A stretch of 64,000 nucleotides of DNA from Enterococcus phage vB_OCPT_CCS1: the sequence record ON113170.1. One strand, written 5' to 3'. This document shows positions 4,287 to 14,732 of this stretch, piece by piece. The notes below the pieces were generated by a model. The model did not search any database and was not told the origin of the DNA. It saw nothing but the letters and a program-made list of their open reading frames with translations. Each line of letters opens with the position of its first letter. Position 1 is the stretch's first letter. The position numbers were made by a program, and so were the translations under genes.

Positions 4287-5822
4287 TTATTTAAGTGCTT
4301 CTTTTACAAAGTCGTATTCTGGTTTATTTAACACAGACAACATCATTTCTTCTGGGGAAGTAACTTCTCCACCTAGTACTTGCGATAAAATATTTGTGGA
4401 GAATCCAGAAACTAACGCAACATTATCTTCGTTAAACCGTACTGGTAGATTATCATGACGAGATTGTACATTCCAGAAAATAATAGCAGGTAACTCGTAG
4501 CCATGATTTGCAAACTCCTGTTTTGCTTGCTCAAAGTTTGTTCTTTGTCCTCGTTCACAAGCAGTATTAAATTCCATATCACTGATAATAATAATCTTGG
4601 ATGGTAGTTCTTCTTGCGGTGTGTTATGCTTAACCGCAGTATCAAGAATCAATCGGAACACTGCTTGAATATTAGTAGAATAGCCAACTCTTGCACGGTT
4701 ATATACTCTCATACGGTCATACACAGTATCCTGTGGATTCAAATATACTAAACTAGGTTCTGATGCAAATGTAATGAAGTGATTAGCGAAAGTACCGTTT
4801 AATTTTTCAGCCGTGTATAATGCCAAACCTTGCGCAACATCCCAAGGGTAAACCCCGTTCGTTTCTGTCCAAGTCATTGAACTAGAAGAATCAGCAACTA
4901 CAATTGCGTTATCTTCCACATCCTTAATAACATCATCTAAAGACTGCCAAGTAGCTTCTAAAGAACGATTTACACCCTGACCTGCACGTGCTTTACGGTA
5001 TGCTCCTGTAATCTCGTGAGGTAATACCAAACTTGCATTAAGCTTTCCTTCACCCGACTCCACCTTTTCCATAAGCGCTTCATATTCATCTGGCATGTGT
5101 AATTGCAAAGCTTTACGGTATTTGAATAATGCTTTAGAGGATACTTGGTTCAAATCAATCTTATGGTATTCCTTGCTTGCTAACCGAACTTCAATTACAT
5201 TTAAGTAATCACGTAATTTAGCAATCATTTTACGATAACGAGTTAGACCTGCTTTGCCTTCAAAACCTAAATAGTTAGCAATACGAGCACCTTGATTACG
5301 TTTCTTACTATTTGGAGAACTTACATTAGCTAACCATTTACCTAGTAATGAAACAGGTTTACCCTCTGACATATTTTTAATATCTGATGTTAGTTGGTTC
5401 CCGATGATACGTGCACCTTCTGTATCCACAAAGTGGATACTACGTTTGTGTGCGTATTCCATAGTTTCAAATAAGTCTGTCCAACGACCAACATATGCCA
5501 TGTACTCCATTAAAGTAACGATTACTTGCTTGTTTTGGTTACGACCATCCACTAAGTATTTGATTGCTTCTAGGTAAGCGGAACGTTCACCCAATCCACC
5601 TAAACGGATATTACGTAAGTGTACCAAATTGCGTAATGCTAACTCTGGGTTTTCAGCATAAGCTTTAGAAAACATGTTTCGTACATCTTCTAAACGACCA
5701 CGCATAGCCCCTGCTTGTGCAAAGAAGTCTAAGTTAGCGTTTAAAGTTGATGTGTAAGTTTTAGCTCCATTTTCTGTATGTCCAACAGTTGTTTCTTCTT
5801 TTAGGTTGTCTAAAAATGACAT
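4287..5822 (-). CDS. Ro60/TROVE-like protein with C-terminal von Willebrand factor A domain (Rsr-like; DUF2828-type vWA protein is the alternative)
   Basis: 511 aa; N-terminal TENGAKTY resembles the Ro60 SEGGTYY region; C-terminal vWA MIDAS DSSSSM...T...IIIISDME; sits immediately downstream of tRNA-mimic (Y RNA-like) ncRNAs. Confidence 0.6.
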   Translation of the reverse strand: MSFLDNLKEETTVGHTENGAKTYTSTLNANLDFFAQAGAMRGRLEDVRNMFSKAYAENPELALRNLVHLRNIRLGGLGERSAYLEAIKYLVDGRNQNKQVIVTLMEYMAYVGRWTDLFETMEYAHKRSIHFVDTEGARIIGNQLTSDIKNMSEGKPVSLLGKWLANVSSPNSKKRNQGARIANYLGFEGKAGLTRYRKMIAKLRDYLNVIEVRLASKEYHKIDLNQVSSKALFKYRKALQLHMPDEYEALMEKVESGEGKLNASLVLPHEITGAYRKARAGQGVNRSLEATWQSLDDVIKDVEDNAIVVADSSSSMTWTETNGVYPWDVAQGLALYTAEKLNGTFANHFITFASEPSLVYLNPQDTVYDRMRVYNRARVGYSTNIQAVFRLILDTAVKHNTPQEELPSKIIIISDMEFNTACERGQRTNFEQAKQEFANHGYELPAIIFWNVQSRHDNLPVRFNEDNVALVSGFSTNILSQVLGGEVTSPEEMMLSVLNKPEYDFVKEALK

Positions 5823-5863
5823 CTGACATCTCTCCTTTGTATGATAGTATTTTATCTAACACC

Positions 5864-5892
5864 ACTATAACATGTAATATTATGTAAGTCAA
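5864..5892 (-). promoter_or_regulatory. promoter TTGACT-17-TATAGT for the Ro60-like gene
   Basis: Motif and spacing. Confidence 0.5.
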
Positions 5893-5989
5893 CGCCTTTT
5901 ATAAATAAAAAACCCATCCATTTAAGAATGAGTTTTTTCATCTTAACCAGTAGTTAAGCGGGGGGGGCGCAACACCTTTTATTTAACTT

Positions 5990-6130
5990 GTCATTATAAT
6001 ATCAAGAACCACAGGCTTAATAATTAGATTTGAAAGGTTTAGTCTATTAGTAGTTGATTGCTGTAGGGTTCTTTATGCTCTGGCAACCTAGTAGGTTAGA
6101 GCTATGGCAAATTGCCAAAACCTTTTTATT
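5990..6130 (-). repeat. third, degenerate copy of the Y-unit 5' module (R1) lacking a tRNA-like domain
   Basis: R1, R2 (6236-6312) and R3 (6418-6500) align as ATAAAA(A/C)GGTTTT-variable palindrome-ATAG-GTTCC/GCTCT...GGAAC/AGAGC-ATAAAGAAC..ACAGC; the outer stem shows two compensatory base-pair changes. Confidence 0.5.
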
Positions 6131-6312
6131 ATGTACAAGAATCTATTTTATACGTTGCTCTAACCAAACTGAGCTACGGGAGGATGATTCCTCCCGGCAG
6201 GACTCGAACCTGCGACCCACGGCTCCATAGGCAATAAAAATCGCTGTTAGATTCTTTATGTTCCGGCACCCATTAAGGATGGAACTATAGCTATGCTAAA
6301 ACCGTTTTATTT
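6131..6312 (-). ncRNA. Y RNA-like ncRNA unit A: permuted tRNA-like domain clamped by a 15-bp helix with a 7-nt bulge
   Basis: Minus strand reads AAGAAUCU[AACAGCG]AUUUUUAU...GCAGGTTCGAGTCCTGC-CGGGAGG-ATCA-TCCTCCCG-TA-GCTCAGTTTGGTTAGAGC-AACG-UAUAAAAUAGAUUCUU. The acceptor strands are perfectly complementary across a 4-nt loop. The 3'-half lying before the 5'-half rules out a normal or intron-containing tRNA. Confidence 0.55.
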
Positions 6313-6500
6313 ATGTAACAAGAACGCATTAACTTTAAGCTTTACCAATTAAGCTATACCACCAATGGTGGCAGTTGGATTCGAACCAACAACTCACATT
6401 TTTCAGATGTATTAGTTTTAAAAATTTGCTGTGGCGTTCTTTATGTTCCGGCTACCTGTTAGGTTGGAACTATGACATATGTCAAAACCTTTTTATCTTG
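6313..6500 (-). ncRNA. Y RNA-like ncRNA unit B: conserved 5' stem-loop module plus a circularly permuted tRNA-like domain (anticodon-like hairpin, T-arm, closed acceptor hairpin, D-arm), closed by a bulged long stem
   Basis: Minus strand reads TACATCTGAAAAATGTG-AGTTG-GTTGGTTCGAATCCAAC-TGCCACC-ATT-GGTGGTA-TA-GCTTAATTGGTAAAGC. The 3' strand GCGTTCTT pairs with AAGAACGC located 5' of the domain. TTGACA-17-TATTAT promoter at 6506-6534. Confidence 0.55.
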
Positions 6501-6505
6501 TCTTT

Positions 6506-6534
6506 ATAATAGCATAAGCTATTTAAACTGTCAA
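6506..6534 (-). promoter_or_regulatory. promoter TTGACA-17-TATTAT driving the Y RNA-like cluster
   Basis: Motif and spacing. Confidence 0.5.
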
Positions 6535-6558
6535 GTATTAATTTAAATATATTGAAAC

Positions 6559-6783
6559 TTATTTAAAAGCTCCAATATATTTAACAGTACCTTTGCATTT
6601 ACGTGCAAAAGCTTCTAGCTCTTTACGAGCACCTAAACGGTCTGGTTGAGAAGACTGTACTGTAACTTCTTTTGGCACAGTAATTTCACGAGTTTTCTTA
6701 ACTGTCTTTCCGTTTTTTAACTTTTGTTCATACTCTTCTGTACGAGTAGAAGTTGTTGAAATAATTCCATAAAATTTAGACAT
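6559..6783 (-). CDS. hypothetical basic protein (74 aa)
   Basis: GGAGG RBS 9 nt upstream of the ATG. Confidence 0.45.
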   Translation of the reverse strand: MSKFYGIISTTSTRTEEYEQKLKNGKTVKKTREITVPKEVTVQSSQPDRLGARKELEAFARKCKGTVKYIGAFK

Positions 6784-6813
6784 GTTATGTGACCTCCGGT
6801 CATTTTATTTTAA

Positions 6814-6895
6814 TGGGGAGTGATGGAGTTGCACCACCCGAGCTTTCGCAACTGATTTACAGTCAGCCCCGCTACTACTTACGGTATAACTCCCC
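6814..6895 (-). tRNA. tRNA-Tyr(GTA), class II
   Basis: Acceptor GGGGAGT/ACTCCCC; anticodon arm GCTGA-CTGTAAA-TCAGT; long variable arm; atypical T-loop TGCAACT. Confidence 0.5.
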
Positions 6896-7091
6896 GTATA
6901 AGTATGTATATATCAATACAATGTACAAGAACTTTTAGTGAGGTAGCTCTCATAGTGTATTAATGGGGTACATTGTGTAACTTCAACTAGTATTGCCTCA
7001 CACGTGACTAGTCTTATATACACAATGCCTACATACAACCCGATAGACCACCCTTGGTACGCATATTAAGAGGCGCAGGGTGGTACGAATA

Positions 7092-7162
7092 TATGGATTG
7101 CAGGATTTGAACCCGCACCTTTTTGACGGAAGCCAAAAATACTACCCTTATATTAAATCCAC
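7092..7162 (-). tRNA. tRNA-Gly(TCC), probable
   Basis: Acceptor GTGGATT/AATCCAT; loop CTTCCGT; T-arm GCGGGTTCAAATCCTGC. Confidence 0.45.
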
Positions 7163-7282
7163 ATAGTGTTAATAGGCGGGTACCCGACAGCGAAGTATCA
7201 TTCCTGTCTTGTCATTCTCCTATTAACTCCATAATACCTTGCCTAGAGTTGAGCTAGGTCTCACATTTATCGAAGGTACTAA

Positions 7283-7355
7283 TCGGGAAAGCAGGACTTG
7301 AACCTGCGACCCCACGCTCCCAAAGCGTGTGCGCTACCAACTGCGCTATTTCCCG
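7283..7355 (-). tRNA. tRNA-Pro(TGG)
   Basis: CGGGAAA-TA-GCGCAGTTGGTAGCGC-CACGC-TTTGGGA-GCGTG-GGGTC-GCAGGTTCAAGTCCTGC-TTTCCCG. Confidence 0.75.
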
Positions 7356-7370
7356 TTAACTTATACATAC

Positions 7371-7420
7371 ATTATAACACAAACTTACATGCTGTAAACA
7401 ACTATTTGTAAGTTTTTTTA
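7371..7420 (-). promoter_or_regulatory. promoter module: A-tract, hairpin, -35 TTTACA, 17 nt, extended -10 TGTTATAAT, upstream of tRNA-Pro
   Basis: Related copies at 15925-15975 and 16436-16470. Confidence 0.45.
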
Positions 7421-7433
7421 ATTTATCCATTCG

Positions 7434-7510
7434 GGACAGTGTGCTTTAACCATTCAGCCACCCGCAGGGGCAACCCGCAGGACGGGAATCGAACCCGTAT
7501 AACACTGTCC
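7434..7510 (-). ncRNA. tRNA-mimic (Y RNA-like) module: 9-bp closing stem, T-arm, closed acceptor-like hairpin, D-arm
   Basis: GGACAGTGT-TAT-ACGGGTTCGATTCCCGT-CCTGCGGG-TTGCC-CCTGCGGG-T-GGCTGAATGGTTAAAGC-ACACTGTCC. No anticodon arm; 5' and 3' ends base-pair. Confidence 0.55.
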
Positions 7511-7675
7511 TATTGGATAGGCTTGTGTACCTGTCATCTTCCGATTACACACACCTAGTCTAGTTACCGTACCAATAGATTTGACAGGAATCTAGGGTAA
7601 CGCCCAATATGGTGTTAATTCACCTCGTATTCTGTTACAGGTTTGCAACCCTGAACAAGGATGACCAATCCTAAT

Positions 7676-7742
7676 GATATGCGAGGGGATTTGAACCCCT
7701 ATCTACTTCATAGGTCACTTTATCCACTTAAGCTACGCATAC
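7676..7742 (-). ncRNA. truncated tRNA-like element (67 nt; acceptor, D-arm and T-arm present; anticodon arm reduced to about 16 nt)
   Basis: GTATGCG-TA-GCTTAAGTGGATAAAGT-GACCTATGAAGTAGAT-AGGGGTTCAAATCCCCT-CGCATAT. Confidence 0.4.
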
Positions 7743-7799
7743 CTATTTAATTTCTAGCTAGGTAACTAAATTCACTGCACCTTGCGCAGAGTACAGCTA

Positions 7800-7872
7800 T
7801 GGAGCATAGCGGACTTGAACCGCTGACATCTACCTTGCAAGGGTAGCGCTCTCCCAACTGAGCTAATGCCCC
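7800..7872 (-). tRNA. tRNA-Ala(TGC)
   Basis: GGGGCAT...CTACC-CTTGCAA-GGTAG...AGCGGTTCAAGTCCGCT-ATGCTCC. Confidence 0.75.
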
Positions 7873-7877
7873 GAAAA

Positions 7878-7950
7878 CACCTCCGCTGAGATTTGAACTC
7901 AGAATGCGGGATTAGAAATCCTGTGGTTTATCCAATTAGCCTACGGAGAT
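7878..7950 (-). tRNA. tRNA-Arg(TCT)
   Basis: Acceptor ATCTCCG/CGGAGGT; loop TTTCTAA; T-arm CTGAGTTCAAATCTCAG. Confidence 0.65.
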
Positions 7951-7954
7951 ATAC

Positions 7955-8119
7955 TTACTTAAACGGAAGATAAATTGTTTGACCAATTCTAATTTTATTA
8001 GGGTCTTTAATATTCCTATTCTGACCATGTAACCAAATTAGTCTCCATAACCAAGGCTTGCCATAATATTTTCTAGCAATAGAATACAATGTGTCACCTT
8101 TTTTAACTGTGTATTTCAT
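7955..8119 (-). CDS. stand-alone LysM-domain mini-protein (54 aa)
   Basis: Not in the ORF track (under 60 aa). ATG at 8119 with GGGGGT RBS; translates MKYTVKKGDTLYSIARKYYGKPWLWRLIWLHGQNRNIKDPNKIRIGQTIYLPFK, the classic LysM pattern. Confidence 0.5.
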   Translation of the reverse strand: MKYTVKKGDTLYSIARKYYGKPWLWRLIWLHGQNRNIKDPNKIRIGQTIYLPFK

Positions 8120-8148
8120 AACAATTACCCCCTAATTTATAAATATGG

Positions 8149-8517
8149 CTATATATAGGATACTCCTGTAAACAATTCAATTGCTTCAATTTCAGTATGG
8201 AAGTTTTCCCATTCTAAACATTCATAGAAATCTTGTAAGATATGCTTGTCTTTCCTGTAAACAGTCTCACCTTTATGGGCTTTCTCACAGATTTCTCTAA
8301 CAGCATCCACATTATATTTACCACCAGTTTTATACTGTTCTAAACCAGAATCTAGTAAAACTCGTTGTACTTCTTCACTCTTATCTCCTGCTTTCCAAGA
8401 GTCAAAAGCTTTATCATACAATGTATCTTCCATGTTTTCACCTTCTACTTCCATGATTGATTGAATAAATCTTTGCCACTTAGAAGGCTCTTTGTGTTTA
8501 CCTTTACGAAAACTCAT
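8149..8517 (-). CDS. hypothetical protein (122 aa)
   Basis: GGAGG RBS. Confidence 0.5.
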   Translation of the reverse strand: MSFRKGKHKEPSKWQRFIQSIMEVEGENMEDTLYDKAFDSWKAGDKSEEVQRVLLDSGLEQYKTGGKYNVDAVREICEKAHKGETVYRKDKHILQDFYECLEWENFHTEIEAIELFTGVSYI

Positions 8518-8544
8518 TATTAGCCTCCATTATCTTTAATGAAC

Positions 8545-8631
8545 CGAGGAGGAGGGACTCGAACCCCCAAACGCTTTTACACGTCTACATGATTTCAAAT
8601 CACGCTGAATACCAGTTATGATACTCCCCGA
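8545..8631 (-). tRNA. tRNA-Ser(TGA), class II, atypical D-arm
   Basis: Acceptor CGGGGAG/CTCCTCG; anticodon arm CGTGA-TTTGAAA-TCATG; long variable arm. Confidence 0.5.
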
Positions 8632-8741
8632 AAAAGAAACTGATTGACTAGTACTGTTAGTTGACTAGTCAACCGGAACTACTTAAACCGAACTCTTTAA
8701 ACAGCTTTAGTAGTTATTATTTAGGTTTTTAAATAAACAAC

Positions 8742-9002
8742 TTACCAAAACCAAACTAGATTTAATGCTAGTCGTTTACTAATAATAGGTGATTTTCTAT
8801 GTCTAACCGATTTAAACTTACGTACATTCCCCTTATATGGTGTAAAGTCAATCTTACAAGGTTCAACATAATTAAATTTACGGTTAGCTCGTTTAATTAC
8901 TGCTTGCTTTTGTTTAGAAGCTTTAATTTCTTTTTCAAATGCTTCTTTTTCAATGTTGTTAGCTATGGTTGCTAAATGTTCAGTCATAAAGCTCATGTCC
9001 AT
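8742..9002 (-). CDS. hypothetical basic protein (86 aa)
   Basis: AAGGAG RBS; lies just downstream of tRNA-Ser(GGA). Confidence 0.4.
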   Translation of the reverse strand: MDMSFMTEHLATIANNIEKEAFEKEIKASKQKQAVIKRANRKFNYVEPCKIDFTPYKGNVRKFKSVRHRKSPIISKRLALNLVWFW

Positions 9003-9021
9003 CTCTCCTTACACGTTCTAT

Positions 9022-9108
9022 GGAAGGCATGGGATTCGAACCCACACATGCTGTTACACATCTACTTGGTTTCCAACCAAGCCTCTTTACCGTTTGAGTA
9101 ACCTTCCG
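9022..9108 (-). tRNA. tRNA-Ser(GGA), class II
   Basis: GGAAGGT-TA-CTCAAACGGTAAAGAG-CTTGG-TTGGAAA-CCAAG, long variable arm, GTGGGTTCGAATCCCAT-GCCTTCC. Confidence 0.7.
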
Positions 9109-9202
9109 TCTTGGGAGCAGGCGGGTTTGTGTCAAGTACACAATACCTAATCTTCTGTGCATGTTGTTCCCTAGGCTTTATGCACACCCTACTATCTGCA
9201 TA

Positions 9203-9388
9203 CTAACAGACCTGCCAATTTTCTAACACTTTTTCTAATGCTTCGTATGGACACATTACTGTCTTACCGTGAACACCATGTATTCTCAAAATAATATAAT
9301 GTTCATTTATCTCAGAGGTAACAAAGTATATCTTGTCTTTCACTAAACCTAAACTTCCGTTTAAACCAATGAATTTTAAATACATCAT
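9203..9388 (-). CDS. hypothetical protein (61 aa)
   Basis: AAGGAGG RBS. Confidence 0.4.
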   Translation of the reverse strand: MMYLKFIGLNGSLGLVKDKIYFVTSEINEHYIILRIHGVHGKTVMCPYEALEKVLENWQVC

Positions 9389-9539
9389 GTTACCTCCTTA
9401 TTATGTATAACCCATGAAGCATCATGGGGGGACTGTAGTATGCCCAACCTGCGGGGATGCTCCGCTCTGAATCCGTAGAAATCAGCCACAATTCGATATT
9501 TATTTAATGAAAAAATTAGATAGGATTCGACTGCTTGAC

Positions 9540-9640
9540 AAAGGCAGTCTATGGAGTAGACGGGACTCGAACCCGTGTCCTAACGTAGAACCATACAAAA
9601 TTCTACGGGCGTAGTTACTAGTTTTAATCTACGTTAAGGT
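9540..9640 (-). ncRNA. tRNA-like/Y-like structured element: canonical T-arm (ACGGGTTCGAGTCCCGT) followed by a closed hairpin GACTGC-CTTTGTCAA-GCAGTC, preceded by a 7-bp hairpin CGTAGAA...TTCTACG; no matching 5' acceptor strand
   Basis: Hand folding; the 3' acceptor CTACTCC has no GGAGTAG partner anywhere upstream. Confidence 0.35.
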
Positions 9641-10132
9641 TACAACTAATAACTGAAATTACCTTAACTGAGTGGTAAAGCCTCTCCTGAGTTATCCACT
9701 TTTACCTCAGCGTTGTCGGTTGATGAGTCCTCTAGGTAGAACCGACCCTAGTCTAGAGGGGTAAGTGTGTAGCTAGTCTAAAACTAGGCTACAGCTAATA
9801 ATTCTTCGTTTTTAGCAGTTATATTTACTGCGATGATTAAGTCATCACTCTGCCCGCTATTCATATACTCCTTACGCCAGTCGAAACCAAAACTACCCCA
9901 ACATAAGAATTTCTTTTGACTAACCCTACCCTTCCGGCAGGGTCTAATCAAAAGTATACAATTAAAAAAATGAAAATGAGTTACGGAAAATGTAACGTCT
10001 CCACCACCGGACTATAAGGGTAAGTTGTTCCGGTCTTTAACCTAAGTACTTTACTTAAATCTAACAGGACAGCCTTCATTACGTAAACTACTTAACCATG
10101 TAAAACGTAAAGGTCAATTTCCGTTGACCTAA

Positions 10133-10206
10133 TGCAAGAGGGGGGATTCGAACCCCCACTGAATAGATTCTAAGTCTACTTCCTCTGCCAGTTGGGATAC
10201 TCTCGC
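10133..10206 (-). tRNA. tRNA with anticodon TAG (Leu-type anticodon) but a short 5-nt variable arm; atypical
   Basis: GCGAGAG...GTAGA-CTTAGAA-TCTAT-TCAGT-GGGGGTTCGAATCCCCC-CTCTTGC. Confidence 0.45.
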
Positions 10207-10290
10207 ATAATAACAGCCCTACCCAACCGCTGTTCTGCTAGCATATAGCTTGCAGGCTTTTTATCTGTGTTATAAAAACCAGAAAGGCTA

Positions 10291-10374
10291 TACGGGTAAC
10301 AGGAGTCGAACCTGCATGTCACAAGGGACAATGGATTTTAAGTCCACAGCGTATACCAGTTCCGCCATACCCGC
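10291..10374 (-). tRNA. tRNA-Leu(TAA), class II
   Basis: GCGGGTA...GTGGA-CTTAAAA-TCCAT, long variable arm, GCAGGTTCGACTCCTGT-TACCCGT. Confidence 0.7.
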
Positions 10375-10552
10375 ATAATCACTTTTTAAACTAGATTATT
10401 TATGATTTCCCACTTCTGAAAAAAATACCACTTTATATATCAACATTTTTCTTATGAATGGGTTAAGATATGTTTTAACGAAAAAGAGGCTAAAAGAGTA
10501 TTTCCTCAAAATTTTTTGTCAAGTTAATCTAGTAAGGAAAAGTGTAACCTTA

Positions 10553-10623
10553 TGTGACTGCTCAGAATCGAACTGAGATTCATGTTTCCACAGAACACTG
10601 CCTTACCGTTAGGCTACAGTCAC
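10553..10623 (-). tRNA. tRNA-His(GTG) with encoded G-1
   Basis: (G)GTGACTG-TA-GCCTAACGGTAAGGC-GTGTT-CTGTGGA-AACAT...TCAGTTCGATTCTGA-CAGTCAC. Confidence 0.75.
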
Positions 10624-10637
10624 CATCATGTGTTCCT

Positions 10638-10676
10638 TACAAGAATTACTATACAGCATCTTGTAAGGAAAGTCAA
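10638..10676 (-). promoter_or_regulatory. promoter TTGACT-17-TATAGT with the -10 box embedded in a 10-bp palindrome CCTTACAAGA/TCTTGTAAGG (operator-like), upstream of tRNA-His
   Basis: Motif, spacing and dyad symmetry. Confidence 0.45.
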
Positions 10677-10695
10677 CACTTAAATGTAATTTTAT

Positions 10696-10917
10696 TTAAA
10701 AAAGTTTTGATGAATCTAATTGAGAGAAACTTTCAGGTAGAGAACCTAGTTCTTCCATATACTCTTGGTCAATCTCATAAACAGATAACTCGGTTACTTC
10801 GTTTTCAATAGTAAGTTTCATTGCTTCTGCTGTTTGTATACTGTGTCCTTCTATTTGAAGTTTATCATCAAGATAAATACCTTCCCAGTCTTCTGCAACT
10901 ACATAGTCTGCTTTCAA
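10696..10917 (-). CDS. hypothetical acidic protein (73 aa; TTG start as in the ORF track)
   Basis: Frame offset by one from the upstream ORF, which stops 9 nt away. Confidence 0.35.
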   Translation of the reverse strand: MKADYVVAEDWEGIYLDDKLQIEGHSIQTAEAMKLTIENEVTELSVYEIDQEYMEELGSLPESFSQLDSSKLF

Positions 10918-10925
10918 GATATTAC

Positions 10926-11177
10926 CTACTTTCTTCTCAATTTCTGATAAAAATTATTATTCTTGTAATCATCCTCGTGGGCATAGAATTTTTTCATGTC
11001 ATATGTCCAACAAGTTTCTTCTACTCGTTTATGATGTGTCAATGTTACTTCGTCATCAAAACAACCTTGATTTAATTTATGCCTGTAATTTCTATTAACC
11101 ATTCTTTTTATATCTCGAACAGTTGAATCTTTCATACAAACATAACGGTAATAGGGTTTTCTGTAACTTCTACTCAT
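10926..11177 (-). CDS. hypothetical basic protein (83 aa)
   Basis: AAGGAGG RBS. Confidence 0.45.
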   Translation of the reverse strand: MSRSYRKPYYRYVCMKDSTVRDIKRMVNRNYRHKLNQGCFDDEVTLTHHKRVEETCWTYDMKKFYAHEDDYKNNNFYQKLRRK

Positions 11178-11331
11178 TGTAAGTCCTCCTTAATAGATAC
11201 TTACAATTTAGACAATACTTTCTTCACAGGAACCACTCCTTATTAATAAAAGCTACCTCCCGAAAAACGTTTCTTCACCAAAGTGTAAGACGTAAACTAA
11301 CGACAGGTCATAGTTTTCCAATTAAGGCAAA

Positions 11332-11405
11332 TACCAGTGAGAGGATTTGAACCTCTGACACCCGCCTTATCAAGACGATGCTCTAACCAACTGAGCTACA
11401 CTGGT
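11332..11405 (-). tRNA. tRNA-Ile(GAT)
   Basis: ACCAGTG-TA-GCTCAGTTGGTTAGAGC-TCGTC-TTGATAA-GGCGG-AGAGGTTCAAATCCTCT-CACTGGT. Confidence 0.7.
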
Positions 11406-11558
11406 GTGACCCATGTGTCAGGACTTTCACCTGTTCTCGGGGTGCCCCGCCTCTCTACTAATCTCCTCATTCGGTGCCCCTACTAGAGTGACTAGAGATA
11501 GTTAGCAATAAAAATTATATATCATGAATCAAATTTTTACTGCATCCTATATACACGA

Positions 11559-11630
11559 TACCGTCTACAGGATTTGAACCTGTGACATCCACCTTGTAAG
11601 GGTGACGTTCTCCCACTGAACTAAGACGGT
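11559..11630 (-). tRNA. tRNA-Val(TAC)
   Basis: ACCGTCT-TA-GTTCAGTGGGAGAAC-TCACC-CTTACAA-GGTGG-ACAGGTTCAAATCCTGT-AGACGGT. Confidence 0.7.
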
Positions 11631-11699
11631 GAAATATGGAACCCTACCAGAGGATTTCTTTCGGTATTACAGTCACCTCGGCATGAACAAAGCCAGATA

Positions 11700-11760
11700 T
11701 TGAGGTCTGGACTTCTCACGCCCCGGGAGTCGAACCCAGTATAGACAAACCATATTTTAT
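11700..11760 (-). ncRNA. tRNA-like fragment (T-arm CTGGGTTCGACTCCCGG plus 3' acceptor GGCGTGA without a 5' partner)
   Basis: Hand folding. Confidence 0.3.
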
Positions 11761-11854
11761 ACGGAAGACAGGATTCGAACCTGCGATATAGGAGTTTTAG
11801 TGCACTTATTGTCTCCACGGTATCCGTTGCGTATGCCCTACACGCCACTTCCGT
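11760..11854 (-). ncRNA. long (95 nt) atypical tRNA-like gene: acceptor ACGGAAG/CTTCCGT, D-arm and T-arm canonical, but no resolvable anticodon arm (contains GGAG...CTCC with a 20-nt insert)
   Basis: Hand folding; could be an unusual class II tRNA or a decoy. Confidence 0.35.
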
Positions 11855-11861
11855 ATGTTAA

Positions 11862-11934
11862 CCGACAGTAAAGGAATCGAACCTCTATCACTAGATTCGT
11901 AGTCTAGTATCCTATCCAATTGAACGAACTGTCG
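11862..11934 (-). tRNA. tRNA-Arg(ACG)
   Basis: CGACAGT...CTAGA-CTACGAA-TCTAG...AGAGGTTCGATTCCTTT-ACTGTCG. Confidence 0.6.
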
Positions 11935-12036
11935 CTCTAGGCTAGCAATTACGCAGACTGACTATGGGCACCTTCGTCCCGTCCCCTGTAAGTGCCCTCC
12001 TACAGGTTGTCCGTGGCACCGCAATGTACTAACCGA

Positions 12037-12110
12037 TGTCCCCACAGGGATTTGAACCCCGAACCTCCCGATTAAAAGTCGGGTGCTCTAGCCGATTGAG
12101 CTATGAAGAC
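12037..12110 (-). tRNA. tRNA-Lys(TTT)
   Basis: GTCTTCA-TA-GCTCAATCGGCTAGAGC-CCCGA-CTTTTAA-TCGGG-CGGGGTTCAAATCCCTG-TGGGGAC. Confidence 0.7.
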
Positions 12111-12159
12111 AGTTGTGTTTTTCAAGATAACCCTCTCGAAAAACCGTTACTAATAGAAA

Positions 12160-12242
12160 AACTAAGGGTCTCGACTGACAGATTTGAACTGCCTGCTCCT
12201 CCTAAGAGGCGTGTTACCAAAGCCATACACCAACTCTTCGAG
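12160..12242 (-). ncRNA. aberrant tRNA-like element (good T-arm GGCAGTTCAAATCTGTC, weak acceptor pairing 5/7, no standard anticodon arm)
   Basis: Hand folding; overlaps the 3' end of tRNA-Lys(CTT). Confidence 0.3.
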
Positions 12243-12243
12243 A

Positions 12244-12318
12244 ATATCCCCTACAGGATTCGAACCTGTGACCCCCTGATTAAGAGTCAGGTGCTACCAC
12301 CAACTGAGCTAAGGAGAT
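12244..12318 (-). tRNA. tRNA-Lys(CTT)
   Basis: ATCTCCT...CCTGA-CTCTTAA-TCAGG-ACAGGTTCGAATCCTGT-AGGGGAT. Confidence 0.65.
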
Positions 12319-12334
12319 AAGATTACCAATAGCT

Positions 12335-12412
12335 AGTTAAGCCTTACGGAATCGAACCGCCATGAGGTTATGAAGCTCACATAGACCACTAGACACAAAA
12401 CTAGCTTATTGA
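12335..12412 (-). ncRNA. aberrant tRNA-like element (T-loop TTCGATT; acceptor 5/7)
   Basis: Hand folding. Confidence 0.3.
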
Positions 12413-12510
12413 TAAAATTCTATATAGATAATTGTATGCAATGTTCGCACTAACTAACCAGATAACTAGCCAATCATTCAAAACATTAATTTGTGAGTTT
12501 CCGCTCACAA

Positions 12511-12582
12511 TGCTGATTGAGAGAATCGAACTCCCATTCCCGGGTTACAAAGCCGGAGTAATAGCCGTTATACTAAATCAGC
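12511..12582 (-). tRNA. tRNA-Thr(TGT)
   Basis: GCTGATT-TA-GTATAACGGCTATTAC-CCGGC-TTTGTAA-CCCGG-GGGAGTTCGATTCTCTC-AATCAGC. Confidence 0.65.
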
Positions 12583-12584
12583 GT

Positions 12585-12604
12585 AACCCCTCAATAGAGG
12601 GGAA
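12585..12604 (-). terminator. hairpin CCCCTC-AATA-GAGGGG after the AAA ATPase stop codon
   Basis: Stem-loop. Confidence 0.3.
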
Positions 12605-12607
12605 TTA

Positions 12608-13699
12608 TTATACTAGGTTACCATACCCGTAGGTATTTGTTTGAGCTTGTTTAAACATGATGCTCTTGATAGTTAAGTCGTTGTACTTTTCATCGTCTTC
12701 ATCATCAAGGTACACATCAACGTTAACGTTCTTACCGGAAATACCGATTGTTTCGTCTTTACCAACTGTTAAGTCTTTACTGTTGAATGATACATCAAAG
12801 TAGATGCTATCTTCTTTTGTACGACTACCGAACGAAACTCTGTCACCGAATAAATCTAAGCTTCGAGAGTTGATTACAACAGGTTGTAACCCACCTTCGA
12901 ATTGAATAGTTACTGTGTAATATTGATTTTCAATATTAAGGATGTTTAAGTCAGCAATAGCTTCACCAAATGGGATACCAAAGTTTAATTCCAACGCAAT
13001 AGCTCGTAAGCAGTCATAATTTAACTTAATTCTACGGCTAAACTTAACAACACTGTCAATTTCACCATAGTAAGCTTCGTCTAACTTATCTTGCAAGTAA
13101 GTACGAATTTCATCTGCATCAGGATATTCGAAACGTAAATGGTAATGAAAACGTCCCGGACGGTTAAGCATAAAGTCATTTACACGATTTAAGCTATTAA
13201 CAGTAAGAGCGTAGATACGTTTACGTTGTGATAAACCATCGAATAAGCTCAATAGTTTTTCTTGTGGTTCACGACCGTCACGGTCATTGAATACTTTTTC
13301 AAACTCATCGAACAGGATAAGAGACTCTTGGTCAATACTGTCAATAAATTCTGCAATCCCCGGATAAGCTTCTGTAATTAAGATAACAGGCATACCCTCT
13401 TCAATAGCTCGTTGAGATAAGATTTGAGTAAATAGTGATTTACCAATCCCTTTGTCTCCACTTAAAATGATTCCTAAGCTACGATTAATTGTTTTAAATG
13501 TGTGTAGCACTTTTTCAATTTTAGCTAAACGGTCACCGTAAACTTTAGGTTCTTTCAAATCAAAATCGTCTGTTACTACTAGCGAGAACCCTGACATTTG
13601 ATTGAACCGAACTTTATAAGTTTGCGCAGGTAACTTATCATAAGTTTTAAGGTCGTTTGCATAAATTTCATAGTTACTACCATAGTTGATTACTTTCAT
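12608..13699 (-). CDS. AAA+ family ATPase (classical AAA clade)
   Basis: Start taken at MKVINYG (AAGGGG RBS). Walker A GDKGIGKS, Walker B LILFDEFE, second region of homology NRPGRFHYHLRF. Embedded in the tRNA operon. Confidence 0.75.
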   Translation of the reverse strand: MKVINYGSNYEIYANDLKTYDKLPAQTYKVRFNQMSGFSLVVTDDFDLKEPKVYGDRLAKIEKVLHTFKTINRSLGIILSGDKGIGKSLFTQILSQRAIEEGMPVILITEAYPGIAEFIDSIDQESLILFDEFEKVFNDRDGREPQEKLLSLFDGLSQRKRIYALTVNSLNRVNDFMLNRPGRFHYHLRFEYPDADEIRTYLQDKLDEAYYGEIDSVVKFSRRIKLNYDCLRAIALELNFGIPFGEAIADLNILNIENQYYTVTIQFEGGLQPVVINSRSLDLFGDRVSFGSRTKEDSIYFDVSFNSKDLTVGKDETIGISGKNVNVDVYLDDEDDEKYNDLTIKSIMFKQAQTNTYGYGNLV

Positions 13700-13738
13700 A
13701 AATATTCCCCTTATTCGTGTTTTACTAGCATTTGCTAA

Positions 13739-13812
13739 TGGAGAGGGGTGGAATTGAACCACCGACCCCTAGGGTTTCAATCTAGTGCTCTAACCTACTG
13801 AGCTACCTCTCC
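13739..13812 (-). tRNA. tRNA-Phe(GAA)
   Basis: GGAGAGG-TA-GCTCAGTAGGTTAGAGC-CTAGA-TTGAAAC-CCTAG-GGTGGTTCAATTCCACC-CCTCTCC. Confidence 0.6.
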
Positions 13813-13933
13813 GTGTCAATTTGGACTTATCCCCCACGTGGTTACTAAGATAAGTCCTATGCCTTTGAAGTGTGGATACTCAAAAATGAGTACAGGTACT
13901 AAAAATCTGATGACAAGTCAGATTTATATCATA

Positions 13934-14004
13934 AGCAGAAGGTGAGATTCGAACTCACATTCAGGGGTTTGCAATCCCTAGCCTTAACCACTTGGCTACT
14001 TCCG
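13934..14004 (-). tRNA. tRNA-Cys(GCA)
   Basis: GCGGAAG-TA-GCCAAGTGGTTAAGGC-AGGGA-TTGCAAA-CCCCT-GTGAGTTCGAATCTCAC-CTTCTGC-T. Confidence 0.7.
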
Positions 14005-14017
14005 CAATATCAAAATA

Positions 14018-14089
14018 CACGCTGTGAAGGATTCGAACCCCCGTCTTCCGGGTTGGAGCCGGAAATGATAGCCACTACACCAACAGCGC
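14018..14089 (-). tRNA. tRNA-Trp(CCA)
   Basis: GCGCTGT...TCCGG-CTCCAAC-CCGGA...GGGGGTTCGAATCCTTC-ACAGCGT. Confidence 0.65.
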
Positions 14090-14164
14090 AAGATTCGGAG
14101 GGGAGGGACTAGCAACCCTCCGAAAGATGTAAGATAATGAGAGATTAAAACATACCACTATTAA

Positions 14165-14215
14165 AAGTGGAATAGGTAATTAAGGATTCGAACCTTACAA
14201 GCCCTTACTGCTTAC
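14165..14215 (-). ncRNA. mini tRNA-like remnant (acceptor plus T-arm only, about 48 nt) immediately downstream of a promoter
   Basis: AGGTAAG-CAGTAAGGGCTTG-TAAGGTTCGAATCCTTA-ATTACCT. Confidence 0.3.
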
Positions 14216-14226
14216 CTTGTAAACTT

Positions 14227-14255
14227 ATAGTATCATGTGTTGTACCGAAAGTCAA
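14227..14255 (-). promoter_or_regulatory. promoter TTGACT-17-TACTAT
   Basis: Motif and spacing; a CTTGTAA motif lies nearby. Confidence 0.4.
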
Positions 14256-14274
14256 CACTTTTTATAAAAATAAT

Positions 14275-14294
14275 AGGGAGAAATATTTCTCCCT
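14275..14294 (-). terminator. perfect palindrome AGGGAGAAATATTTCTCCCT followed by a U-rich tract (minus sense), between tRNA-Met and the upstream promoter
   Basis: Hairpin plus AUUAUUUUUAUAAAA. Confidence 0.45.
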
Positions 14295-14300
14295 AAAAAA

Positions 14301-14373
14301 TGGACTACTTGGGAATCGAACCCAAACCTGTCAGTTATGAGCTGACGGCTCTGACCTACTGAGCTAATAGTCC
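14301..14373 (-). tRNA. tRNA-Met(CAT) (Met or lysidine-Ile cannot be distinguished)
   Basis: GGACTAT-TA-GCTCAGTAGGTCAGAGC-GTCAG-CTCATAA-CTGAC-TGGGTTCGATTCCCA-GTAGTCC. Confidence 0.75.
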
Positions 14374-14406
14374 GTGTAATAATACCACGAAATAAACCTT
14401 AGTAAG

Positions 14407-14508
14407 TCATACAGTCCCAGAAAGGGAGGCATATGATACTAGTGTTGAGTGCCATAATCGTTTAATAAATGTGACTGAGAGAGTAATAAATTTCTTAGGC
14501 ATGTCCAT
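14407..14508 (-). CDS. possible 33-aa peptide MDMPKKFITLSVTFIKRLWHSTLVSYASLSGTV
   Basis: AAAGGAGG RBS 5 nt before the ATG; flanked by a 14-bp inverted repeat (GGGAGGCATATG / CATATGCCTCC). Confidence 0.3.
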   Translation of the reverse strand: MDMPKKFITLSVTFIKRLWHSTLVSYASLSGTV

Positions 14509-14580
14509 ATGCCTCCTTTCCAATAATGATAGTTTTAAGATATAAACAGAATAAATAAAAGAGAAAATAATAATGAATAA

Positions 14581-14652
14581 TAGCGCATGAGAGAGTCGAA
14601 CTCTCGATTCCGGTTCGAAAGACCGGTGTCTTGACCGCTTGACCAATGCGCC
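14581..14652 (-). tRNA. tRNA-Glu(TTC)
   Basis: GGCGCAT-TG-GTCAAGCGGTCAAGAC-CCGGT-CTTTCGA-ACCGG-GAGAGTTCGACTCTCTC-ATGCGCT. Confidence 0.75.
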
Positions 14653-14657
14653 ATAAA

Positions 14658-14732
14658 CGAGCTATATGGGACTTGAACCCATGACCTTCTCCGTGACAGG
14701 GAGACGAGCACTCCTGACTGCTCCAATAGCCC
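14658..14732 (-). tRNA. tRNA-Asp(GTC)
   Basis: GGGCTAT-TG-GAGCAGTCAGGAGTGCTC-TCTCC-CTGTCAC-GGAGA-ATGGGTTCAAGTCCCAT-ATAGCTC. Confidence 0.75.

What the first reader, a model, noticed from the sequence alone, without database searches (positions are those of the whole stretch)
7434..7510. Isolated tRNA-mimic module with paired 5'/3' ends between tRNA-Pro and the next tRNA
The sequence GGACAGTGT-TAT-[ACGGG TTCGATT CCCGT]-[CCTGCGGG-TTGCC-CCTGCGGG]-T-[GGCTGAATGGTTAAAGC]-ACACTGTCC has a perfect T-arm and a D-arm with GG. Its acceptor-like helix is closed on itself with G-U pairs, and a 9-bp terminal stem replaces the anticodon arm. It cannot be aminoacylated since it has no free 3' end. It is a second kind of tRNA-like decoy or Y-like RNA embedded in the tRNA operon.
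Basis: seen in the sequence. Interest (0 to 1): 0.7.

Follow-up and report, generated by a model that had tools for sequence, protein, structure and literature searches.

The report
Sealed tRNA-shaped RNA in phage
An Enterococcus phage carries, inside its tRNA gene cluster, a conserved ~100-base RNA that folds like a tRNA body with both ends sealed; it is an unannotated, stripped-down relative of the known tRNA-mimicking "Y RNAs" that partner with Ro60-type proteins, one of which the phage encodes 1.6 kb away.

Summary
On the minus strand, 7510..7434 reads exactly as described. With an outer stem the element spans about 7519..7424. It folds into a four-way junction: a closing stem, a T-arm, an 8-bp acceptor-like hairpin and a D-arm. 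It is not the ends of two tRNAs.

Rfam's YrlA (Y RNA-like) model hits it below threshold (30.1 bits against a cut-off of 69). Two stronger YrlA-like RNAs lie at 6126-6419. The adjacent 511-aa DUF2828/DUF7788 protein is predicted to have a Ro60 fold.

The element differs from those neighbours. It lacks the ACAGCAA motif, the terminal CUUGU helix and the V hairpin that mark the RNAs next to DUF2828 genes in 72 of 80 phage loci. Its own stem with an internal loop closes it instead.

Orthologues occur in Enterococcus Schiekvirus relatives and in all 54 matching Listeria (P100/A511-like) phage records. In the Enterococcus-phage alignment, 17 of 31 base pairs show compensatory change. None is annotated as an RNA feature.

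Best reading: an independent, functional tRNA-body mimic derived from the YrlA lineage. Its partner protein is unknown. I rate it a new variant of a known kind, of moderate interest.

The parts
7424..7519 (-). Whole 'C-type' element: a sealed tRNA-body mimic (Rfam YrlA sub-threshold hit at 7420-7520; own model R2 at 7418-7522)
7514..7519 (-). Outer stem, 5' strand (UAUCCA); pairs with 7424-7429
   Evidence: MFE; pairs 8-101 and 9-100 covary
7511..7513 (-). Internal loop, 5' side (AUA; WUR in most orthologues, only UU in L084)
7502..7510 (-). Inner closing stem, 5' strand (GGACAGUGU); occupies the place of the tRNA anticodon stem
   Evidence: 5 of 9 pairs change on both sides
7499..7501 (-). 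Short variable-loop equivalent (UAU). U7499 (position 48) can pair with A15 of the D-loop (Levitt pair); the L002 orthologue has G15:C48
   Evidence: read directly from the sequences
7482..7498 (-). T-arm: ACGGG UUCGAUU CCCGU
   Evidence: 3 of 5 pairs covary
7461..7481 (-). Acceptor-like hairpin: CCUGCGGG UUGCC CCUGCGGG (8 bp, two G-U pairs)
   Evidence: 4 of 8 pairs covary; 10 bp in L081, absent in L085/L086
7443..7458 (-). D-arm: GCUG AAUGGUUA AAGC, preceded by U8-G9 equivalents at 7460-7459
7434..7442 (-). Inner closing stem, 3' strand (ACACUGUCC)
7430..7433 (-). Internal loop, 3' side (CGAA; YGWA in most orthologues, GCAA in L081)
7424..7429 (-). Outer stem, 3' strand (UGGAUA)
6318..6442 (-). 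Context: YrlA-like unit B. Terminal helix AAGAACGC/GCGUUCUU, ACAGCAA at 6432-6426, V hairpin, T-arm, 7-bp acceptor-like hairpin, D-arm
   Evidence: Rfam YrlA 34.3 bits; R3 56.9 bits; fold
6135..6256 (-). Context: YrlA-like unit A. Terminal helix AAGAAUCU/AGAUUCUU, ACAGCGA at 6247-6241, V, T, 8-bp acceptor-like hairpin, D-arm
   Evidence: Rfam YrlA 47.1 bits; R3 54.0 bits; fold z = -3.97
6003..6073 (-). Context: third ACAGCAA unit (motif at 6064-6058) with terminal helix AAGAACC/GGUUCUU but no tRNA-like core (YrlB-like?)
4287..5822 (-). Context: 511-aa DUF2828 + DUF7788 protein (PHROG 850, 'RNA-binding protein') with a predicted Ro60/TROVE + vWA fold

Best explanation
The element is an independently folding, selectively maintained small non-coding RNA of about 95-105 nt. 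It is a circularly permuted tRNA body of the YrlA (bacterial/phage Y RNA) type, reduced to the tRNA-like module alone.

Shown:
- It forms an L-shaped tRNA core: T-arm, D-arm, acceptor-like helix, and a short variable linker with the elbow-forming nucleotides.
- The acceptor end is capped by a 5-nt loop.
- The 'anticodon' end is replaced by a 9-bp stem, an asymmetric internal loop and a 5-6-bp stem formed by the RNA's own 5' and 3' ends.
- It is encoded in the tRNA array, on the same strand as a Ro60-fold protein gene and two canonical-looking YrlA-like RNAs, 1.6 kb upstream of that gene.

Inferred mechanism:
- It is transcribed with, or next to, the tRNAs and is released by processing of its neighbours. 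In Listeria phage P100 its 3' end abuts a tRNA-Arg, so RNase P would trim it.
- Because both ends are sealed, it is stable and is neither decoded nor charged.
- It presents a tRNA elbow and acceptor-like helix to proteins that recognise tRNA shape. Candidates are modification or processing enzymes, tRNA-directed host factors, or the phage Ro60-like particle.
- It therefore acts as a tRNA-shaped ligand or competitor during infection.
- It lacks the ACAGCAA/terminal-helix module that marks the RNAs adjacent to DUF2828 genes. I therefore think it works as an 'effector-only' offshoot, not as the main Ro60-tethering Y RNA.
For: - The structure is present and unusually stable.
- Rfam YrlA hits at 7420-7520 with 30.1 bits, E = 5e-4 in 1.8 kb and 3.6e-3 in 13 kb.
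- Model R3, built only from tRNA-like modules next to DUF2828 genes in other phages, scores it 35.6 bits (E = 4e-8). That is above every tandem-tRNA junction in the window, the best of which is 30.3.
- If the acceptor loop is cut and the closing stem capped with an artificial anticodon loop, ARAGORN calls a tRNA. This holds for the window, L002 and P100 versions.
- Orthologues in L001, L002/L083, L081 and L084, and in Listeria phage P100, each fold on their own into the same junction. L085/L086 keep the closing stem, T-arm and D-arm but lack the acceptor hairpin.
- On the 5-sequence alignment of Enterococcus-phage orthologues, 90.3% of cells are paired against 74.3% in shuffles (0 of 500 shuffles reach it). 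17 of 31 pairs change on both sides. Slid controls give 37-50% paired.
- The element persists in three different contexts: before a WDGH gene, directly before tRNA-Arg (P100), and before a promoter plus tRNA-Pro (window).
- The neighbouring protein has a Ro60 fold. The top 11 PDB matches are all Ro60/TROVE, E = 1e-7 to 3e-5, TM 0.45-0.63, with 500-573 aligned columns.
- tRNA-like modules are systematically linked to DUF2828 genes: 56 non-tRNA hits, all on the gene's strand and mostly within 1 kb.
- It is present in 30 Enterococcus and 54 Listeria phage records.
Against: - No expression or end-mapping data were available. The RNA's ends, stability and abundance are inferred.
- The Rfam score is under half the gathering cut-off.
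- The R3 score is only about 5 bits above the best tandem-tRNA junction.
- The covariation rests on 5 sequences from about 4 lineages, and the alignment was partly guided by the window's fold.
- Conservation within Schiekvirus (96-100%) is no higher than that of the genomes overall.
- No binding partner is identified.
- The conserved internal loop (WUR/YGWA) could be a Ro60-like binding site, which would make it a true Y RNA and not an effector-only RNA.
- One orthologue (L187) carries two stem-disrupting changes.
Confidence: 0.55

Rival explanations
1. It is a bona fide Y RNA. The phage Ro60-like (DUF2828) protein binds its closing stem with the internal loop, as Ro60 binds the bulged lower stem of animal Y RNAs. 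The tRNA-like head then tethers another factor, for example an exoribonuclease, as in the Ro60-Y RNA-PNPase particle.
For: - The Ro60-fold gene is 1.6 kb away on the same strand, which meets the <4 kb criterion of Chen et al. 2014 (PMC4201824).
- The closing stem has a sequence-conserved asymmetric internal loop (WUR / YGWA-U-RG) across Enterococcus and Listeria phages.
- In the window the 3' side reads CCCGAAUGG, which contains the CGAA core of the GNCGAA(N)G motif.
- The element co-occurs with the gene in every genome seen.
- Phage phiLo Ro60 binds phage Y-like RNAs and host PNPase (PMC12135203).
Against: - ACAGCAA marks the RNAs next to DUF2828 genes in 72 of 80 loci: 374 copies on the gene strand, 52 on the opposite strand, 74.5 expected. 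It is missing from all C-type orthologues.
- CGAA is on the 3' strand, not the 5' strand, and is CGUA, UGUA or GCAA in the orthologues.
- The element sits in the tRNA array and not beside the gene.
Confidence: 0.2
2. It is a cis-acting element of the array transcript and not a trans-acting RNA. It could be a 5' leader or stabiliser for the downstream gene. It could instead be a double-stranded processing site (RNase III type) that punctuates the polycistronic tRNA precursor.
For: - In L002/L083, L081, L084 and L085/L086 the element ends 10-20 nt before the ribosome-binding site of a WDGH-domain gene.
- The 15-bp interrupted terminal helix resembles phage RNase III sites (own knowledge).
Against: - The window and L001 keep the element although no WDGH gene exists in the 64-kb window or the 13.5-kb L001 locus (tblastn).
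- In P100 it is followed directly by a tRNA.
- 78 of the 80 WDGH loci, from other phages, have no tRNA-like module upstream; L109/L110 have only a weak hit about 570 nt upstream.
- A mere processing helix would not need preserved T-loop, D-loop and Levitt-pair nucleotides.
Confidence: 0.12
3. It is cut by RNase P in the acceptor-like loop, trimmed and given CCA, as M. smegmatis YrlA is. This would yield a two-piece tRNA-like molecule with a free 3' end that could even be charged.
For: - The acceptor-like stem is 7 bp plus a -1:73 pair. Chen et al. report that a 7-bp stem is what makes M. smegmatis YrlA an RNase P substrate in vitro and in vivo (PMC4201824).
- The stem length of 8 bp is kept in most orthologues.
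Against: - The loop is only 4-5 nt in most orthologues and is a UUCG tetraloop in P100. This leaves almost no single-stranded leader.
- L085/L086 have no acceptor hairpin at all, yet keep the rest.
- The loop contains no encoded CCA.
Confidence: 0.06
4. It is not a functional unit. It is either the T-arm end of one tRNA and the D-arm start of the next, or a decaying remnant of a tRNA rearrangement that folds by chance.
For: - Tandem tRNA junctions do score with the core-only models at 20-45 bits. Chen et al. warn of this artefact (PMC4201824).
- The region is a tRNA array.
Against: - No tRNA is called on either side within the module.
- The two acceptor strands pair with each other, and the flanks pair with each other.
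- There are compensatory changes in all five helices.
- The element is conserved between Enterococcus and Listeria phages whose Ro60-like proteins share about 42% identity.
Confidence: 0.03

Closest known systems
YrlA, the tRNA-mimicking bacterial/phage Y RNA (Rfam RF02553; Chen et al. 2014, PMC4201824)
   Same: - Same permuted order: 5' stem strand, variable region, T-arm, closed acceptor-like stem-loop, D-arm, 3' stem strand.
- tRNA-invariant T-loop and D-loop nucleotides.
- 5' and 3' ends paired.
- Encoded on the same strand within 4 kb of a Ro60-type gene.
- Also found in phages.
   Different: - Scores 30.1 bits against a gathering cut-off of 69.
- No V hairpin; a 3-nt linker takes its place.
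- No GNCGAA(N)G or ACAGCAA motif on the 5' strand.
- The closing stem abuts the tRNA core directly, with no large internal loop.
- Embedded among tRNA genes and not placed beside the Ro60 gene.
- The partner protein is a DUF2828 family member that is Ro60-like by predicted fold only.
The window's own ACAGCRA-type YrlA-like RNAs (units A 6135-6256 and B 6318-6442) and their relatives next to DUF2828 genes in other phages
   Same: - Same T-arm, closed acceptor hairpin and D-arm core (R3: 54.0, 56.9 and 35.6 bits).
- Same strand and same phage.
   Different: - Units A and B have a terminal helix ending in CUUGU, an ACAGCRA internal-loop motif and a V hairpin.
- They form a separate unit behind a predicted promoter (6534-6506) directly upstream of the gene.
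- The finding has none of these features.
Thermus phage phiLo Ro60 with Yrl1/Yrl2 (PMC12135203; PDB 9KOP, 9L5Y)
   Same: - A phage-encoded Ro60-fold protein with phage-encoded Y-like RNAs upstream of its gene.
- The predicted fold of the window's protein matches 9KOP and 9L5Y at E = 1e-7 to 4e-7.
   Different: - Yrl1 and Yrl2 were defined by a stem-bulge-stem with a CGAA motif, not by a tRNA-like module.
- No tRNA array context is reported.
Circularly permuted tRNA genes of Cyanidioschyzon merolae (own knowledge)
   Same: The 3' half (T-arm, 3' acceptor strand) is encoded upstream of the 5' half (5' acceptor strand, D-arm).
   Different: - Joining the ends here would give a 6-7-nt loop (CGAAAUA, CGUAUUA, UGUAUU...) without U33 or R37, on an 8-9-bp stem.
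- No bulge-helix-bulge motif.
- No anticodon.
- It is not a tRNA precursor.

Membership tests
YrlA / Y RNA-like (Rfam RF02553; Chen et al. 2014) | Score at or above the Rfam gathering cut-off (69 bits) | tested here: not met
   30.1 bits at 7420-7520(-), E = 5e-4. Units A and B are also sub-threshold at 47.1 and 34.3 bits.
YrlA / Y RNA-like | Near-invariant T and D stem-loops with tRNA-type nucleotides, separated by a closed acceptor-like (AS) stem-loop | tested here: met
   T-loop UUCGAUU, G53-C61, G18G19, U8, A14, A15:U48.
YrlA / Y RNA-like | V stem-loop upstream of the T stem-loop | tested here: not met
   Only UAU lies between the closing stem and the T-arm. Units A and B do have a V hairpin.
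YrlA / Y RNA-like | GNCGAA(N0-1)G motif near the 5' end (proposed Ro60 contact) | tested here: not met
   The 5' strand reads CUAUCCAAUAGG. The nearest match, CCCGAAUGG, is on the 3' strand and is not conserved. The local variant ACAGCRA occurs at 6432, 6247 and 6064 only.
YrlA / Y RNA-like | Long stem formed by the 5' and 3' ends | tested here: met
   9 bp + internal loop + 5-6 bp, with covariation in both parts.
YrlA / Y RNA-like | Encoded within 4 kb of, and on the same strand as, a Ro60 orthologue | tested here: met
   1.6 kb upstream of ORF 5822..4287(-). The ORF is Ro60-like by predicted fold but is not hit by Pfam TROVE.
YrlA / Y RNA-like | Bound by Ro60; carries tRNA modifications (pseudouridine 55, dihydrouridine) | not testable with these tools
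   Needs RIP/EMSA and modification mapping.
tRNA-like modules next to phage DUF2828 genes (own models R1/R3) | Core matches a model built without this element | tested here: met
   R3 gives 35.6 bits, E = 4e-8. This is weaker than units A and B and only about 5 bits above the best tandem-tRNA junction.
tRNA-like modules next to phage DUF2828 genes | ACAGCAA motif 5' of the core, and a 3' tail (CUUGU/CUAGU) that pairs with the strand preceding the motif | tested here: not met
   Absent in the window, L001, L002, L081, L084, L085 and P100 versions.
Conventional tRNA (Rfam RF00005) | Acceptor stem formed by free 5' and 3' ends, an anticodon arm, and a score at or above 29 bits | tested here: not met
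   There is no tRNA or ARAGORN hit over 7420-7520. It is recognised as a tRNA only after artificial un-permutation.
Permuted tRNA gene | Joining the termini restores a 7-nt anticodon loop (U33, R37) on a 5-bp stem | tested here: not met
   The joined internal-loop strands give CGAAAUA, CGUAUUA, UGUAUU, GCAAGUA or UGUAUUG on 8-9-bp stems (sequences).
Ro60/TROVE protein (for the neighbouring ORF) | HEAT-repeat ring plus a C-terminal vWA domain with a MIDAS motif | tested here: met
   AF2 model with pLDDT 89.3 and pTM 0.89. The top 11 Foldseek PDB hits are all Ro60. D311-x-S313-x-S315 is invariant. Sequence-level searches fail.

The most novel reading that the evidence does not exclude
The element founds a phage-specific class of 'sealed tRNA bodies', so far seen only in Enterococcus and Listeria Herelleviridae. 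Members would act independently of the Ro60-like particle. They would use only the tRNA elbow and acceptor-like helix to titrate or redirect a host tRNA-recognising factor during infection. Candidates are a tRNA-directed defence nuclease or sensor, RNase P/Z, or the CCA-adding enzyme.
Probability: 0.2. Interest if true: 0.75.

Novelty: new variant of a known kind. Interest (0 to 1): 0.5.

Why it matters
tRNA-mimicking Y RNAs are known, but what their tRNA-like domain does is still open. This element offers that domain on its own, without the Ro60-binding-type module. It is conserved with compensatory changes in therapeutic-type Enterococcus and Listeria phages (Schiekvirus; P100/A511). That makes it a clean handle for asking which proteins read the tRNA shape.

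The work also links a large phage protein family to Ro60 by fold. The family is DUF2828 / PHROG 850, found in 694 GenBank phage records and usually placed beside tRNA arrays. It also links the family to a strongly enriched RNA motif, ACAGCAA. None of these RNAs is annotated in the records I examined.

Tried and rejected
- WDGH-gene leader. The element precedes a WDGH gene in six related contigs. The window and L001 have no such gene. 78 of the 80 WDGH loci, from other phages, have no such RNA; L109/L110 have only a weak hit about 570 nt upstream. Rejected as a general explanation.
- True permuted tRNA precursor. Rejected, because the joined ends give no valid anticodon loop.
- K-turn in the internal loop. 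The sequences do not fit the tandem G-A pattern (by inspection).
- Sequence-level link of the ORF to Ro60. Pfam TROVE, NCBIfam, and PDB phmmer and hmmsearch found nothing. Only the fold comparison worked.
- Wider relatives by pattern GGTTCGANTCC..GGTTA..YGWATRG:
  - Viral contigs returned only Enterococcus-type and P100 copies.
  - 88 bacterial-genome loci gave no R2 hit.
  - Metagenome loci gave only close copies plus one weak hit (L296) with no closing stem and z of about 0.
- Core-only models R1 and R3 pick up many tandem-tRNA junctions (70 of the top 150 hits). They are not specific without an ARAGORN filter.
- Literature. No paper in the held library links YrlA or Y RNAs to Herelleviridae or to DUF2828. 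Burroughs & Aravind 2016 and the Sim et al. 2020 review could not be fetched. The supplementary phage list of Chen et al. 2014 is not held.

Full report
**What the window is.** The region 5800-8000 is 96-98% identical to Enterococcus phages of the genus Schiekvirus (Herelleviridae), such as phiSHEF16 and EfV12-phi1. The minus strand carries a tRNA array from 7091 to 16419. ARAGORN genes there, including a tmRNA. Rfam adds a ROOL RNA.

**The observation.**
- Alone it folds into a four-way junction at -34.7 kcal/mol, z = -3.27.
- With flanks, an outer stem UAUCCA/UGGAUA forms across an AUA/CGAA internal loop: -39.9 kcal/mol, z = -3.57. The unit is therefore about 7519..7424.
- ARAGORN and the Rfam tRNA model place no tRNA on it.
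- The two acceptor strands pair with each other, and the flanks pair with each other. The 'ends of two adjacent tRNAs' reading does not hold.

**What it resembles.** Rfam in E-value mode gives three hits to YrlA (RF02553, 'Y RNA-like') on the minus strand. All are below the gathering score of 69:

| Position | Bits |
|---|---|
| 6126-6241 | 47.1 |
| 6312-6419 | 34.3 |
| 7420-7520 | 30.1 |

Chen et al. 2014 (PMC4201824) define YrlA by these features:
- a 5'/3' stem;
- a GNCGAA(N)G motif;
- a V hairpin;
- near-invariant T and D stem-loops that flank a closed acceptor-like stem-loop;
- a location within 4 kb of a Ro60 gene, on the same strand.

They also show that M. smegmatis YrlA, which has a 7-bp acceptor-like stem, is cut by RNase P and receives CCA. 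And they warn that tandem tRNAs can mimic the core.

**The neighbouring protein.**
- The ORF 5822..4287(-) encodes 511 aa and matches Pfam DUF2828 + DUF7788 and PHROG 850, 'RNA-binding protein'.
- It has no sequence-level hit to TROVE, NCBIfam or PDB.
- An AlphaFold2 model from a 37-sequence alignment is confident: pLDDT 89.3, pTM 0.89.
- Its 11 best Foldseek matches in the PDB are all Ro60/TROVE structures: Xenopus, human and Thermus phage phiLo. They have E = 1e-7 to 3e-5, TM 0.45-0.63 and 500-573 aligned columns. After them come only isolated vWA domains.
- A DxSxS MIDAS motif is invariant.
- tblastn finds relatives in 694 GenBank phage records. Some mycobacteriophage copies are annotated 'Ro-like RNA binding protein'.
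- In Listeria phage P100 the gene lies a few genes upstream of genes annotated as a tRNA splicing ligase and an RNA ligase.

**RNAs around DUF2828 genes in general.**
- I fetched 80 viral loci with a DUF2828 relative. They hold 563 ARAGORN tRNA/tmRNA genes together with the window, nearly all on the gene's strand.
- A hand-written descriptor (T-arm + closed hairpin + D-arm) found 51 matches against 1 in shuffled sequence.
- A covariance model of that core (R1) found 440 matches, many of them tandem-tRNA junctions. Of the top 150, 56 overlap no tRNA. All 56 are on the gene's strand, and most lie 200-850 nt from the gene.
- Their flanks share a motif, ACAGCAA. It is preceded by a strand that pairs with a 3' tail ending CUUGU or CUAGU.
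- ACAGCAA occurs 374 times on the gene strand, 52 times on the other strand, with 74.5 expected. 178 copies lie within 1 kb upstream, and 72 of 80 loci have one within 1 kb.
- In the window it occurs (as ACAGCRA) at 6432, 6247 and 6064.
- The extended units B (6318-6442) and A (6135-6256) fold as terminal helix, ACAGCRA loop, V, T, acceptor-like hairpin and D. That is the full YrlA layout.
- A third unit (6003-6073) has the helix and the motif but no tRNA-like core.

**How the finding differs.** The element at 7424-7519 has no ACAGCAA, no CUUGU tail and no V hairpin. Its tRNA-like core is closed directly by its own stem. I call this the C-type.
- With R3, a model built without any window or C-type sequence, it scores 35.6 bits (E = 4e-8). 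Units A and B score 54.0 and 56.9. The best tandem-tRNA junction in the window scores 30.3.
- So it belongs with these modules but is the most divergent of the three.

**Orthologues and covariation.** C-type copies were found in contigs whose DUF2828 proteins are 80% to 56% identical to the window's. These are L001, L002 (= L083 = L088), L081, L084 and L085 (= L086).

Each folds on its own into the same junction, with different stem sequences:

| Orthologue | Inner stem |
|---|---|
| window | GGACAGUGU / ACACUGUCC |
| L002 | GGAAACG / CGUUUCC |
| L081 | GGGAGAGU / ACUCUUCU |
| L085 | GGGUAGAG / CUCUACCC |

- L081 has a 10-bp acceptor hairpin. L085/L086 have none.
- On a MAFFT alignment of five sequences with the window's MFE structure, 90.3% of cells pair, against 74.3% in shuffles (0 of 500 reach it).
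- 17 of 31 pairs change on both sides, spread over all five helices. Sliding the partners by 1-3 columns gives 37-50% pairing.
- The Levitt-pair positions read A15:U48 in the window and L081, and G15:C48 in L002 (read).
- A model of the whole element (R2) then found a copy in Listeria phage P100 at 36.8 bits, E = 6e-7. It has the same architecture, a UUCG-capped 8-bp acceptor hairpin, and a UUG/UGUA internal loop. It ends a few bases before tRNA-Arg.
- That sequence is present in all 54 matching Listeria phage records. The window's version is in 30 Enterococcus phage records.
- None is annotated as an RNA feature.
- A pattern scan confirmed with R2 found further copies only in Enterococcus-type and P100 contigs. 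It found none in 185,579 bacterial and archaeal species genomes.

**Is it a tRNA in disguise?** I cut the acceptor loop and capped the closing stem after 5 bp with an artificial anticodon loop. ARAGORN then calls a tRNA for the window, L002 and P100 versions. The geometry is therefore that of a tRNA body. Joining the real internal-loop strands would give 6-7-nt loops without U33 or R37, on 8-9-bp stems. It is not a permuted tRNA precursor.

**Context and expression signals.**
- A strong promoter-like site (TTTACA-16-TATAAT with TG, 7398-7371) lies just downstream of the element and ahead of tRNA-Pro.
- Only a weak one (7618-7589) lies upstream of the element.
- In six related contigs the element ends 10-20 nt before the ribosome-binding site of a WDGH-domain gene.
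- The window has no such gene.
- 78 of the 80 WDGH loci, from other phages, have no such RNA; L109/L110 have only a weak hit about 570 nt upstream.
- The element is thus kept in three different downstream contexts. This argues for an autonomous RNA.

**Interpretation.**
- Shown: a conserved structured RNA with tRNA-body geometry, of the YrlA type, in a phage that encodes a Ro60-fold protein and two fuller YrlA-like RNAs.
- Inferred: it is released from the array transcript, it is stable because both ends are sealed, and it acts through its tRNA elbow and acceptor-like helix on a tRNA-recognising partner.
- Undecided: whether the partner is the Ro60-like protein, through the conserved internal-loop stem, or a host factor.
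- Not excluded: cleavage by RNase P followed by CCA addition, given the M. smegmatis precedent.

**Novelty.** Phage Ro60 homologues with Y-like RNAs are known from mycobacteriophages, CcrColossus, Bacillus phage G and Thermus phiLo (PMC4201824, PMC12135203, PMC7824862). What is new here:
- the sealed, module-only variant;
- its presence in Enterococcus and Listeria Herelleviridae;
- the ACAGCAA signature of RNAs next to DUF2828 genes.

I found no paper in the held library describing any of these. The library is incomplete and two key reviews could not be read.

**Verdict.** This is a real feature and a new variant of a known kind. Interest is 0.5.

Noticed in passing
window 6003-6445 (-); loci L001-L080: The heptamer ACAGCAA (ACAGCGA in one copy) marks tandem small-RNA units beside DUF2828 genes. 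In 80 loci there are 374 copies on the gene strand, 52 on the opposite strand and 74.5 expected. 72 of 80 loci have one within 1 kb. It looks like the family-specific counterpart of the GNCGAA Ro60-binding motif.
   Followed up: partly
window ~6497-6446, ~6305-6257, ~6123-6074 (-): Each of the three ACAGCRA units is preceded by a repeated ~50-nt segment with two hairpins, for example GGUUUUGACAUAUGUCA and UAGUUCC...GGAACAU. There is no Rfam match. It may be a processing site or an extra domain of these RNAs.
   Followed up: no
window 6003-6073 (-): The third ACAGCAA unit has the terminal helix (AAGAACC/GGUUCUU) but an AU-rich, weakly structured interior and no tRNA-like core. It may be a YrlB-like partner RNA.
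   Followed up: partly
window 15309-15895 (-): A full-length ROOL RNA (Rfam RF03087, 267.8 bits) sits inside the tRNA array.
   Followed up: no
window 9549-9899 (-): A phage-encoded tmRNA (tag AKNEELLAVA) lies in the same array. The same tag is seen in related contigs L002, L083 and L084.
   Followed up: no
window 7676-7742 (-): A 67-nt tRNA-like gene (Rfam tRNA, 41.7 bits) has a shortened anticodon stem. ARAGORN misses it. It is annotated tRNA-Arg in phiSHEF16.
   Followed up: no
window 6816-6893 (-): A tRNA-like sequence scores just under the Rfam cut-off (27.7 against 29 bits). It has a GUA anticodon, a long variable arm and an unusual T-loop (GUGCAAC). Related contigs have tRNA-Tyr at this position. 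A small ORF follows it (~6782-6560).
   Followed up: no
window 11716-11784 (-): Two orphan T-arm-like hairpins (GCAGG UUCGAAU CCUGU and CUGGG UUCGACU CCCGG) lie in the 231-nt gap between tRNA-Val and tRNA-Arg. No tRNA is called there.
   Followed up: no
L085 8259-8342, L086 41-124: This orthologue of the element lacks the acceptor-like hairpin entirely. The T-arm joins the D-arm directly, while the closing stem and internal loop are kept. The elbow and stem may be the essential parts.
   Followed up: partly
L002, L081, L083-L086 (e.g. L083 6847-7242): A ~125-aa WDGH-domain protein gene (PF25311; PHROG 3392, function unknown) directly follows the element in relatives. It is absent from the window.
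   Followed up: yes
L170 (Listeria phage P100) 8295-14858: Downstream of the DUF2828 gene lie genes annotated as a metal-dependent phosphohydrolase, a tRNA splicing ligase and an RNA ligase. This echoes the bacterial Ro60-RtcB RNA-repair operon.
   Followed up: no
loci L001-L080: DUF2828 genes in very diverse phages sit next to tRNA arrays. There are 563 ARAGORN tRNA/tmRNA genes in 1.07 Mb (80 loci plus the window), nearly all on the gene's strand.
   Followed up: partly
window 7521-7675 (-): The 155-nt spacer upstream of the element is 83% identical in L081 and partly conserved in L002. It folds stably (-39.3 kcal/mol). Its function is unknown.
   Followed up: partly
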